Origin: Escherichia coli 042 | Lineage (GTDB): Bacteria > Pseudomonadota > Gammaproteobacteria > Enterobacterales > Enterobacteriaceae | DNA length: 64,000 nucleotides | Strand: one strand, 5' to 3' | NCBI RefSeq assembly: GCF_000027125.1 | Contig: NC_017626.1 | In this document: piece by piece, positions 50,760 to 53,878 of the stretch | Numbering within the stretch: the stretch's first letter is position 1 | How the letters are laid out: each line of letters begins with the position of its first letter | Program-made: the position numbers and the translations under genes | Notes under the pieces: model-generated | What the model was told of the DNA's origin: nothing | The model's database searches: none | The model's input: the letters and a program-made list of their open reading frames with translations, nothing else

Positions 50760-51897
50760 TCAGGCGTCACGCGGTAACCCTTTTTCAATCACCCGAACCA
50801 GACGCTGTTTTTTCGGTAATTGCACTTCGACTATGCACGCATTTCGCCTCTCGATTTGCTGCGCAATCGCCCACGCTATGTGCTCATCAAGAAGTGGGTG
50901 CTCACCTTTACGACTTTCCAGCGCTGTCAAAATCGTTTCATCCCAGGGGGCATTGCCTAATGCTACGGCGATATTACGCAGCCAACGCAGGTGACCAATA
51001 CGACGAATCGCCGATCCTTCCGTGACTTTTAAAAACGTCTCTTCGCTCCAGGCGAATAACTCAATGAGTTCCGGTGCGTGTAGCGGCTTACGCGGGCTGA
51101 AATCGTCTTCTGTAGTGAGTTGCGAATAGCGGTTCCACGGGCAGATAAGCTGGCAGTCATCGCAACCGTAAATACGGTTTCCCATTAACGGGCGTAACTC
51201 TTCCGGGATTGCCCCTTCCAGTTCTATCGTCAGATAAGAAATGCAGCGGCGAGCATCTACGGTATATGGCTCGACGATGGCACCGGTCGGGCAAATCGTC
51301 ATACAGGCCACGCATTTACCGCATCTTTCCTCGACTGGTTGATCCACGGGCAGCGGAATATCGACCAGCAATTCGCCTAAAAAGAAGAACGAACCGGCTT
51401 CGCGATTGAGGATAAGTGAGTGCTTACCTGTCCAGCCAAGTCCTGCTTTTTCAGCTAACGGGCGCTCGAGAATAGGCGCAGAATCGACAAACGGTCTAAA
51501 ATTCAGCGAAACACAATGTTGCTGAATCATCTCGCCCAGCTTTTTGAGTCGGTTGCGCAGAAGTTTGTGATAGTCACGGCCCAGCGCATAACGGCTAACA
51601 TAGCCGAGTTTGGGGTTTTTCAGCGTGCTGGCAAATGCGGCGTTAGCAGGAAGGTAATTCATCCGCACGCTGATCACGCGCAGCGTACCGGGCAATAACT
51701 CATGGGGGCGAGCGCGCAGCATACCGTGACGCGCCATCCAGTCCATTTCGCCGTGGTATTGTTTGTCCAGCCATGCTTGCAGTTTGGGCTCGGACTCGCT
51801 GAGATCGGTATCGGTAATACCTACCTGCTGAAAGCCCAGTTCCAGCCCCCACTGTTTAATTTTTTGCGCTAATTGATTGAGATCGAGGGGCTCTGAC

Positions 51898-51899
<2 letters not shown>
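50760..51899 (-). CDS. queG: Epoxyqueuosine reductase QueG
   Basis: 379 aa from [23 protein letters not shown]; 4Fe-4S Cys motifs (CGKCVACMTICP, CDDCQLICP). Confidence 0.9.

Positions 51900-53878
<1,979 letters not shown>

What the first reader, a model, noticed from the sequence alone, without database searches (positions are those of the whole stretch)
51897..51900. Divergent queG and nnr start codons overlap on opposite strands (CATG)
The queG ATG (minus, 51897-51899 as CAT on plus) and the nnr ATG (plus, 51898-51900) share two base pairs, so the two genes have no intergenic promoter region and must be transcribed from promoters lying inside each other's coding sequence. This appears to be the native core arrangement and is included only for completeness.
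Basis: seen in the sequence. Interest (0 to 1): 0.15.

Follow-up and report, generated by a model that had tools for sequence, protein, structure and literature searches.

The report
Head-to-head queG/nnr start-codon overlap
Two neighbouring E. coli housekeeping genes on opposite strands really do share two bases of their start codons, each is transcribed from a promoter inside the other's coding sequence, and the arrangement is rare and ancient but already annotated and catalogued.

Summary
CAT (queG start, minus strand) is at 51897-51899 and ATG (nnr start, plus strand) at 51898-51900. RefSeq annotates the same 2-bp overlap in K-12 MG1655 and in the strain identical to the window. Published K-12 data, where the region is 99% identical with no gaps, put the nnr-operon 5' end at window 51510. 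That is 388 nt upstream of the nnr ATG, inside queG. The queG 5' end maps to window 51923, 24 nt upstream of the queG ATG, inside nnr. The resulting 413-nt antisense overlap is reported as dsRNA in two independent studies. One tool paper lists queG-nnr among 16 core divergent 'excludons' of E. coli.

New here: each 5' end lies within 1 nt of where a -10 element predicts it. Both -10 elements are held in place by rare codons: nnr Ile13 ATA and queG Arg135 AGA, each 18/18 in Enterobacteriaceae. The CATG is conserved in 31 other Enterobacterales loci spanning at least 13 genera. In Pectobacterium and Brenneria the overlap has been resolved. The queG-proximal copy keeps the promoter, while the relocated nnr loses those codons.

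Verdict: real, rare (only 2 divergent overlaps were counted in E. coli), mechanistically tidy, already known. Whether the overlap regulates anything is untested.

The parts
51897..51900 (.). CATG: queG ATG (minus, 51899->51897) and nnr ATG (plus, 51898-51900) sharing A51898/T51899
   Evidence: Conserved in 31 other Enterobacterales loci.
50760..51899 (-). queG coding sequence (epoxyqueuosine reductase, 379 aa)
   Evidence: Pfam QueG_DUF1730 plus Fer4_16. Aligns to the B. subtilis QueG structure 5d08 from residue 6. No other in-frame ATG/GTG/TTG lies between the mapped 5' end and codon 27 (sequence).
51898..53445 (+). nnr (yjeF) coding sequence, 515 aa, first gene of the nnr-tsaE-amiB-mutL-miaA-hfq... 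operon
   Evidence: Pfam YjeF_N (from residue 40) plus Carb_kinase. Operon membership from PMC4161252.
51885..51890 (+). nnr Shine-Dalgarno GAGGGG, 7 nt before the ATG; it is the antisense of queG codons 4-5 (CCC CTC, Pro-Leu)
   Evidence: GAGGGG or GAGAGG at a 7-nt spacer in 31 of 33 sequences. queG codons 5, 6 and 8 show 0.00-0.01 synonymous variation.
51931..51939 (-). queG promoter, extended -10 TGGTATACT (plus strand AGTATACCA = nnr codons Ser12-Ile13-Pro14)
   Evidence: Sequence. Ile13 is the rare ATA codon in 18/18 Enterobacteriaceae and TTA in 14/14 others. TGnTAnnnT lies 25-49 nt upstream of the queG start in 61 of 75 loci against 5.6% of shuffles, and also where nnr is not adjacent. 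It is retained in the queG-proximal remnant in Pectobacterium and Brenneria.
51923..51924 (-). queG transcript 5' end (5'UTR about 24-25 nt, 51900-51923/4)
   Evidence: The Conway et al. overlap ends at 4,392,114 (U00096.2), which is window 51923. The seventh base after the -10 is G51924. A p19-captured minus-strand read UCAUUGUAUGGUCCGUCAUGUC covers the leader.
51496..51502 (+). nnr-operon promoter -10, C-TAAAAT (antisense of queG codons Asn133-Phe134-Arg135); no good -35
   Evidence: Sequence. GGTCTAAAATTCAG is invariant in 18/18 Enterobacteriaceae. Arg135 is the rare AGA codon in 18/18 against CGN in 14/14 other families, while AGA is 33 of 531 Arg codons in these queG genes. The 70-nt core is identical in 5,334 of 5,425 E. 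coli genomes.
51509..51510 (+). nnr-operon transcript 5' end (5'UTR about 388 nt, 51510-51897, wholly antisense to queG codons 1-130)
   Evidence: Conway et al. give 'P 4391701 ... T 4408049, +, Divergent', which is window 51510. The -10 ends at 51502, which predicts a start at 51509.
51510..51923 (.). 413-nt region transcribed on both strands (face-to-face promoters); a source of RNase III-processed dsRNA
   Evidence: Conway overlap length 413. [quoted passage not shown]

Best explanation
queG and nnr are a genuine head-to-head overlapping gene pair whose start codons share two bases (CATG). Because there is no spacer, all expression signals of each gene are written into the coding sequence of the other.

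The nnr Shine-Dalgarno (GAGGGG) is the antisense of queG codons 4-5. The queG promoter is an extended -10 element (TGGTATACT) spelled by nnr codons 12-14. It gives a short, unstructured leader of about 24 nt. The nnr-operon promoter is a -10 element (CTAAAAT) spelled by queG codons 133-135. It gives a 388-nt leader that is antisense to the first third of queG.

The two promoters therefore face each other 413 bp apart. Their transcripts are complementary over that stretch and form dsRNA that RNase III cuts.

Shown: the overlap, the annotation, the published 5' ends and dsRNA in K-12, the conservation, and the codon-level dual constraint. Inferred: that the -10 motifs are the active promoters, that the K-12 data apply to this strain, and that the face-to-face layout causes mutual interference between queG and the nnr operon (an excludon-type effect). 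I rate that last step at only about 0.4.
For: Overlap and annotation. The window and K-12 are 99% identical over 51440-51980 with no gaps, and all the elements are identical.

Transcript ends and dsRNA: (PMC7373196, relaying Conway 2014 and Lybecker 2014). Coordinates were calibrated on the read CAUGACGGACC..., which puts the nnr ATG at 4,392,089 in U00096.2, equal to 4,394,066 in version .3 minus 1,977. Reads from both strands span the CATG. The pair is listed as a divergent excludon present in at least 50% of 58 transcriptomes.

Starts: the CATG is conserved in 31 other Enterobacterales loci, with tblastn alignments starting at residue 1 of both proteins. An SD sits at a 7-nt spacer in 31 of 33 sequences. 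The distance from the ATG to the S-(I/L)-P motif is in frame in 32 of 33. Codon 6 of nnr is not a start codon in the other families.

Dual coding: the synonymous-difference fraction is 0.245 for queG codons 1-10, 0.126 for nnr codons 1-5 and 0.147 for nnr codons 11-15, against 0.53-0.56 elsewhere. The rare codons AGA and ATA are fixed in 18/18.

The queG -10 motif is independent of nnr.
Against: No single-base TSS data (dRNA-seq or Cappable-seq) could be retrieved for this locus. The 5' ends used come from RNA-seq coverage, second-hand through another paper's supplement.

A strict sigma-70 consensus scan finds no promoter in 51400-52400, because both candidates lack a -35.

No N-terminal proteomics or initiation-site ribosome profiling could be found for either protein.

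The part of queG under the long nnr leader (codons 11-125) shows no extra synonymous constraint (0.51-0.54), so nothing indicates selection on the antisense pairing itself.

The nnr -10 is confined to Enterobacteriaceae, so nnr must use other signals in Yersiniaceae and related families even though the CATG is kept.

The sequences compared are phylogenetically related, so counts such as 18/18 are not 18 independent events.
Confidence: 0.8

Rival explanations
1. Nnr is really translated from the second ATG (Met6, 51913-51915). The coding sequences would then not overlap, and a 13-nt gap would separate the two starts. The CATG overlap would be an annotation convention.
For: In locus L020 a 1-nt insertion puts the first ATG out of frame, and only the Met6-equivalent ATG opens the Nnr frame. 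In Enterobacteriaceae codon 6 is always a potential start or a near-start codon (ATG 8, TTG 5, CTG 3, GTG 2). The strong nucleotide conservation of codons 2-4 could be due to the queG translation-initiation region on the other strand rather than to Nnr. The Pfam YjeF_N domain only begins at residue 40.
Against: GAGGGG or GAGAGG sits exactly 7 nt before the first ATG in 31 of 33 sequences, and there is no SD before Met6. In the 14 sequences from other families codon 6 is AAG, GAA, GAG and similar, so only the CATG ATG can open the frame upstream of the conserved S-L-P-H motif. The only other indel between the ATG and that motif is in frame (+12 nt). L020 is a metagenome-assembled genome, so a 1-nt error is plausible. 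Relocated nnr genes in Pectobacterium keep an MTDH N-terminus.
Confidence: 0.07
2. The internal -10 at 51496-51502 is not the main source of nnr mRNA. Plus-strand transcription instead reads through from upstream (glyVXY/yjeV) across the whole antisense of queG, as a 'noncontiguous operon' yjeV-queG-nnr.
For: ExcludonFinder lists yjeV-queG-nnr as one of three noncontiguous operons in E. coli. Only one weak terminator-like hairpin was found on the plus strand upstream of yjeV. The candidate nnr promoter has no -35.
Against: Conway et al. call a promoter, not read-through, at 4,391,701. The Lybecker and p19 dsRNA signals both begin only 16-53 nt downstream of it rather than covering all of queG. 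The -10, with its rare AGA codon, is invariant across 18 Enterobacteriaceae sequences. Its 70-nt core is identical in 98% of E. coli genomes.
Confidence: 0.15
3. The architecture is as described, but the 413-nt antisense overlap has no regulatory role. It would be a tolerated by-product of an ancient compaction, and the dsRNA is simply cleared by RNase III.
For: There is no excess synonymous conservation in queG codons 11-125 beneath the nnr leader. The nnr promoter position is not conserved outside Enterobacteriaceae. The overlap has been resolved without apparent harm in Pectobacterium and Brenneria, and nnr has moved away in Photorhabdus, Proteus and most Vibrio. No study retrieved reports a phenotype or reciprocal expression for this pair.
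Against: The pair is among the 20 most abundant coding-gene dsRNA clusters. It is present in at least half of 58 transcriptomes. The divergent adjacency is kept across Enterobacterales, Alteromonadales, Aeromonas and some Vibrionaceae. ExcludonFinder reports that excludon pairs in general show raised synteny.
Confidence: 0.45

Closest known systems
Divergent excludons / 5'-overlapping divergent operons in E. coli (Conway et al. 2014; Lybecker et al. 2014; Huang et al. 2020; ExcludonFinder 2025)
   Same: Neighbouring genes on opposite strands whose 5' transcript regions are complementary. dsRNA is detected and processed by RNase III. This very pair is listed in those datasets.
   Different: Most listed pairs have an intergenic region (mean 95 nt for E. 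coli excludons). Here the spacer is -2 nt, so both promoters and both ribosome-binding sites are inside coding sequence. Reciprocal expression has not been shown for this pair.
Face-to-face (convergent) promoters causing transcriptional interference, e.g. coliphage 186 pR/pL (from my own knowledge of the literature)
   Same: Two promoters fire towards each other, so polymerases must traverse the opposing promoter.
   Different: The separation here is 413 bp and both promoters look weak (no -35). Interference has not been measured.
Short co-directional gene overlaps (ATGA / TGATG) used for translational coupling
   Same: Overlap of a few bases involving a start codon. Such overlaps are common in compact bacterial genomes. 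The nnr-tsaE pair in this same operon overlaps co-directionally by 29 nt.
   Different: Those overlaps are on one strand and couple translation. A head-to-head overlap cannot couple translation, and it is far rarer (2 of 663 overlaps in E. coli).

Membership tests
Head-to-head (divergent) overlapping gene pair | The two coding sequences lie on opposite strands and overlap at their 5' ends | tested here: met
   CAT at 51897-51899 and ATG at 51898-51900. RefSeq coordinates overlap by 2 bp.
Head-to-head (divergent) overlapping gene pair | Both annotated start codons are the ones actually used | tested here: inconclusive
   Comparative evidence is strong: CATG in 31 other loci, an SD at 7 nt, codon 6 not a start codon outside Enterobacteriaceae, and the queG 5' end excluding upstream starts. 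No experimental N-terminus or initiation-site profiling could be retrieved.
Divergent excludon | Transcripts of the two divergent genes overlap in their 5' regions | tested here: met
   Published K-12 data give a 413-nt overlap and reads of both strands across the CATG. The sequence is identical in the window at all elements. This was not measured in this strain.
Divergent excludon | The overlap forms dsRNA that is processed by RNase III | tested here: met
   p19-captured 21-22 nt duplex reads (cluster S-361) and the Lybecker dsRNA immunoprecipitation locus MS-212. This is literature evidence only.
Divergent excludon | Mutually exclusive or reciprocal expression of the two partners | not testable with these tools
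   No expression data for promoter mutants or rnc mutants at this locus were found.
Extended -10 sigma-70 promoter (queG) | TGn immediately upstream of a TAnnnT hexamer, with the transcript start about 7 nt downstream | tested here: met
   TGGTATACT at 51939-51931 (minus strand). The seventh base after the hexamer is 51924, and the published 5' end is 51923. The motif is present in 61 of 75 loci against 5.6% of shuffles. Promoter activity itself was not assayed.
Bidirectional promoter with a shared symmetric -10 (back-to-back starts about 18 bp apart) | The two transcription starts point away from each other from one shared -10 region | tested here: not met
   The 5' ends at 51510 (plus) and 51923 (minus) point towards each other, 413 bp apart.
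Leaderless mRNA | The transcript starts at the A of the start codon | tested here: not met
   The published 5' ends are 24 nt (queG) and 388 nt (nnr) upstream of the start codons. Reads extend beyond the ATG on both strands.

The most novel reading that the evidence does not exclude
The face-to-face promoters embedded in each other's reading frames form a selected reciprocal switch. When the nnr-operon leader promoter fires, its 388-nt leader silences queG by collision and RNase III cleavage. This may happen preferentially with sigma-S, since yjeF was mildly sigma-S-preferred in vitro and the -10 has an upstream C. queG transcription would in turn damp the first promoter of the nnr-tsaE-amiB-mutL-miaA-hfq superoperon. 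That would link the last step of queuosine tRNA modification to a cluster of other tRNA-modification and RNA-chaperone genes. The fixation of the rare codons AGA and ATA would be the footprint of that selection.
Probability: 0.2. Interest if true: 0.4.

Novelty: already known. Interest (0 to 1): 0.18.

Why it matters
As given, the finding matters little. It is the reference annotation of a core E. coli locus, and the transcript overlap is already in four published datasets.

It is nevertheless a clean textbook-grade example of how far bacterial genome compaction can go. Two ribosome-binding sites and two promoters are all encoded inside protein-coding sequence, with measurable costs: rare codons are frozen in place and synonymous sites are constrained.

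There is also a practical point. Any edit, knockout or recoding near the first 15 codons of nnr or the first 10 codons of queG will disturb the partner gene's expression signals. The same holds for queG codons 132-135. Because nnr heads the operon that contains tsaE, mutL, miaA and hfq, a 'clean' queG deletion could have polar effects on those genes.

Tried and rejected
- **Strict sigma-70 consensus scan of 51400-52400:** no promoter found. This was uninformative rather than negative, because both mapped 5' ends follow -10 elements that lack a -35.
- **Single-base TSS data:** the Thomason et al. paper is not held. The Cappable-seq and SMRT-Cappable-seq supplements are truncated as stored and contain no coordinates near this locus. 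The Conway supplements are not held.
- **Protein-level starts:** the TRAINSPOTTER N-terminomics supplements have no nnr or queG entry. The Ribo-RET preprint has no held supplements.
- **RNase III target papers:** no mention of the locus.
- **Structured RNA in the leaders:** no Rfam match at E<=1. The 431-nt nnr leader region has z = -0.85. The queG leader folds worse than shuffles, z = +1.57.
- **Leaderless mRNAs and a shared bidirectional promoter:** both considered and rejected on the mapped 5' ends.
- **Alternative queG start at the upstream GTG (52007):** rejected, because it lies beyond the queG 5' end at 51923.
- **Coordinates:** my first recollection of the K-12 coordinates was wrong. 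I replaced it with a calibration on NC_000913.3 and on a sequenced read.
- **E. coli population control:** this is a single segment, chosen when I already knew it contained two window-versus-K-12 differences. It is only indicative.

Full report
**1. The observation**

The window reads ...ATCGAGGGGCTCTGA-CATG-ACGGACCATACAATG... with C51897, A51898, T51899 and G51900. CAT at 51897-51899 is the complement of an ATG on the minus strand. That ATG opens a 379-aa frame, MSEPLDLNQ... ATG at 51898-51900 opens a 515-aa frame, [10 protein letters not shown]....

The window is E. coli. A 1-kb query around the site matches 5,425 of 5,426 complete genomes. It is 100% identical to isolate AF40 and about 97.5% identical to a K-12-like strain, AML001_ev02.

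RefSeq annotates exactly this 2-bp overlap in AF40, in that K-12-like strain and in MG1655: queG 4392928..4394067 on the minus strand and nnr 4394066..4395613 on the plus strand.

**2. Are these the true starts?**

*queG.*
- The only upstream in-frame start (GTG at 52007) lies beyond the mapped transcript 5' end (see section 3).
- No ATG, GTG or TTG occurs in frame in the next 26 codons.
- The alignment to the solved B. subtilis QueG structure begins at residue 6.

*nnr.*
- GAGGGG lies 7 nt before the first ATG (51885-51890). There is no such element before the second ATG (Met6, 51913).

*Comparative evidence.* A scan of one genome per species returned 80 queG loci.
- In 31 of about 40 Enterobacterales loci, tblastn aligns both proteins from residue 1, with the nnr start one base before the queG start coordinate. 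That is the same CATG. The genera are Escherichia, Citrobacter, Enterobacter, Kluyvera, Cedecea, Pantoea, Serratia, Yersinia, Rahnella, Hafnia, Budvicia, Edwardsiella, Acerihabitans and others.
- GAGGGG or GAGAGG sits at the 7-nt spacer in 31 of 33 sequences.
- The distance from the ATG to the conserved Ser-(Ile/Leu)-Pro motif is 33 nt in 30 sequences, 45 nt in 2 and 34 nt in 1.
- Codon 6 is ATG, TTG, CTG or GTG in Enterobacteriaceae. It is AAG, GAA or GAG in the other families, where only the CATG ATG can open the frame.

The one dissenter is a metagenome-assembled genome, L020. A 1-nt insertion there leaves only the Met6-equivalent ATG in frame.

No experimental N-termini or initiation-site ribosome profiling could be retrieved. 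The starts are therefore strongly supported but not proven.

**3. Where transcription starts**

Huang et al. [quoted passage not shown] Their supplement gives these coordinates in U00096.2:

| Dataset | U00096.2 | Window |
|---|---|---|
| p19 cluster S-361 | 4391754-4392109 | 51563-51918 |
| Lybecker dsRNA MS-212 | 4391717-4392100 | 51526-51909 |
| Conway overlap (413 nt) | 4391701-4392114 | 51510-51923 |

The Conway entry is annotated 'P 4391701, T 4408049, +, Divergent'.

I calibrated these coordinates on a sequenced read, CAUGACGGACCAUACAAUGAAG, at 4392087-4392109. It puts the nnr ATG at 4,392,089, which equals 4,394,066 in version .3 minus 1,977. Subtracting 4,340,191 converts to window coordinates.

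The window and K-12 align without gaps at 99% identity over 51440-51980, and every element discussed here is identical.

The mapping gives:
- the nnr-operon 5' end at window 51510, 388 nt upstream of the nnr ATG and inside queG codon ~130;
- the queG 5' end at window 51923, 24 nt upstream of the queG ATG and inside nnr codon 9.

Duplex reads from both strands span the CATG itself.

ExcludonFinder (PMC12288877) independently lists queG-nnr among 16 divergent excludons present in at least half of 58 MG1655 transcriptomes. It also lists yjeV-queG-nnr as a 'noncontiguous operon'.

**4. The sequence elements behind those ends**

*queG promoter.* On the minus strand, TGGTATACT (51939-51931) is an extended -10 element. 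The seventh base after it is G51924, 1 nt from the published end.

*nnr promoter.* On the plus strand, C-TAAAAT (51496-51502) predicts a start at 51509, 1 nt from the published end.

Neither has a recognisable -35, which is why the strict consensus scan found nothing.

Both hexamers are written in the partner's codons:
- TGG-TAT-ACT is the antisense of nnr Ser12-Ile13-Pro14 (AGT ATA CCA).
- TAAAAT is the antisense of queG Asn133-Phe134-Arg135 (AAT TTT AGA).

**5. Evidence of dual constraint**

I built codon alignments of 32 sequences that share the CATG. The fraction of same-amino-acid pairs that use different codons is shown below.

| Region | Synonymous-difference fraction |
|---|---|
| queG codons 1-10 | 0.245 |
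| nnr codons 1-5 | 0.126 |
| nnr codons 11-15 | 0.147 |
| rest of queG | 0.53 |
| rest of nnr | 0.56 |
| queG codons 11-125 (under the nnr leader) | 0.51-0.54 |

The stretch of queG under the nnr leader is at background.

Rare codons are frozen exactly where they form the -10 hexamers:
- nnr Ile13 is ATA in 18/18 Enterobacteriaceae sequences, although ATA is 47 of 493 Ile codons in those genes. It is TTA in 14/14 sequences from other families, which gives TGGTAAACT.
- queG Arg135 is AGA in 18/18, although AGA is 33 of 531 Arg codons. It is CGN in 14/14 others, which lack the -10.

Start-proximal codons are constrained in many genes, and these species are related. The strength of this evidence therefore lies in the position-specific pattern rather than in the counts.

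Within E. coli, the 70-nt junction core is identical in 5,248 of 5,425 genomes and the nnr-promoter core in 5,334 of 5,425. A single control segment between them is identical in 426 of 5,421.

**6. History**

A TGnTAnnnT motif lies 25-49 nt upstream of the queG start in 61 of 75 loci, against 5.6% of shuffled upstream regions. The modal distance is 31 nt. The motif is present in Photorhabdus, Proteus, Xenorhabdus, Photobacterium, Moritella, Shewanella and Pseudoalteromonas, where nnr is not adjacent. The queG promoter is therefore old and independent of nnr.

Divergent queG-nnr adjacency, with small spacers, also occurs in Idiomarina, Alteromonas, Aeromonas, Tolumonas and some Vibrionaceae.

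In Pectobacterium and Brenneria the overlap has been resolved by what looks like duplication of the junction:
- The queG-proximal copy keeps CATG and the -10 (TGGTAACAT or TGGTAAAAT), but its frame is broken by stop codons.
- The relocated nnr, 146-147 bp away, keeps Leu-Pro but with codons TTG CCT or TTG CCG, which destroy the -10.

This natural experiment fits the idea that the specific codons serve the promoter, while Leu-Pro serves the protein.

**7. How it most likely works**

*Shown or directly supported:* a true 2-bp head-to-head overlap; face-to-face promoters 413 bp apart inside the partner genes; complementary 5' regions that yield RNase III-processed dsRNA.

*Inferred:* mutual interference between queG and the first promoter of the nnr-tsaE-amiB-mutL-miaA-hfq superoperon. 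Conway et al. describe that superoperon as the most complex in their dataset.

I give the regulatory step about 0.4. No reciprocal expression data exist. The long overlap shows no sequence constraint. The arrangement has also been lost in several lineages.

The queG leader is short, U-rich and unstructured (z = +1.57), with at best a weak GGU Shine-Dalgarno. The nnr leader has no Rfam match and no unusual fold.

**8. Comparison and verdict**

The locus meets the structural criteria of a divergent overlapping gene pair and of a divergent excludon. It is not a shared back-to-back bidirectional promoter, and it does not produce leaderless mRNAs.

Head-to-head overlaps are rare: 2 of 663 overlapping pairs in the E. 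coli genome analysed by Huvet and Stumpf. I infer, but did not verify, that this pair is one of the two.

Everything in the finding as written is already in the reference annotation and in published transcriptome catalogues. The codon-level dual-coding evidence and the Pectobacterium resolution are modest additions.

Interest is low, at 0.18.

Noticed in passing
window 50724-50777 (+), overlapping queG 50760-50777: The 17-codon small ORF yjeV, annotated in RefSeq, overlaps the 3' end of queG convergently by 18 nt. ExcludonFinder lists yjeV-queG as a convergent excludon. queG is therefore overlapped at both ends by plus-strand genes.
   Followed up: partly
window 50147-50303: The spacer between the first and second tRNA-Gly(GCC) genes is 157 nt in this strain and in AF40, against 36 nt in K-12, so about 121 extra bases. 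ARAGORN finds only three tRNAs, so the extra DNA is not a fourth intact tRNA.
   Followed up: partly
window 53417-53445: nnr and the downstream tsaE overlap co-directionally by 29 nt (nnr ends at 53445, tsaE starts at 53417). This is longer than the usual 1- or 4-nt coupling overlaps.
   Followed up: no
window 51907-51909 (minus-strand ATG): An out-of-frame ATG lies 10 nt upstream of the queG ATG, within the 24-nt leader. It opens an 18-codon frame ([17 protein letters not shown]) across the queG start. It is the antisense of nnr His4, which is CAT in 18/18 Enterobacteriaceae sequences and 9/14 others. It could be a tiny uORF, part of a weak SD (UGGU), or incidental.
   Followed up: no
L049, L053, L055, L061, L065, L066, L070, L080 (Vibrio loci), 20-50 nt upstream of queG: Vibrio queG upstream regions lack the TGnTAnnnT motif. 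They share instead a conserved repeat-like element, GGATCTTAACGGATCT (variants GGGATCTTACAAGATCT), of unknown function.
   Followed up: no
L036 (Pectobacterium zantedeschiae), about 1.2 kb between queG and nnr: An insertion carrying an open frame of at least 321 codons separates queG from nnr in this species. The queG-proximal remnant still has CATG and TGGTAAAAT.
   Followed up: no
L020 (MAG, Enterobacteriaceae-like), junction region: A single extra base after nnr codon 4 puts the CATG ATG out of frame with Nnr. Only the Met6-equivalent ATG opens the frame. This is either an assembly error or a lineage in which Nnr starts 5 codons later.
   Followed up: partly
window 51495-51505: The nnr-operon -10 has a C immediately upstream (TCTAAAATTC) and no -35. 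yjeF-yjeE-amiB-mutL were mildly preferred by sigma-S holoenzyme in a published in vitro run-off array, with ratios of 1.88-2.06. Sigma-S dependence of this promoter is possible but untested.
   Followed up: no
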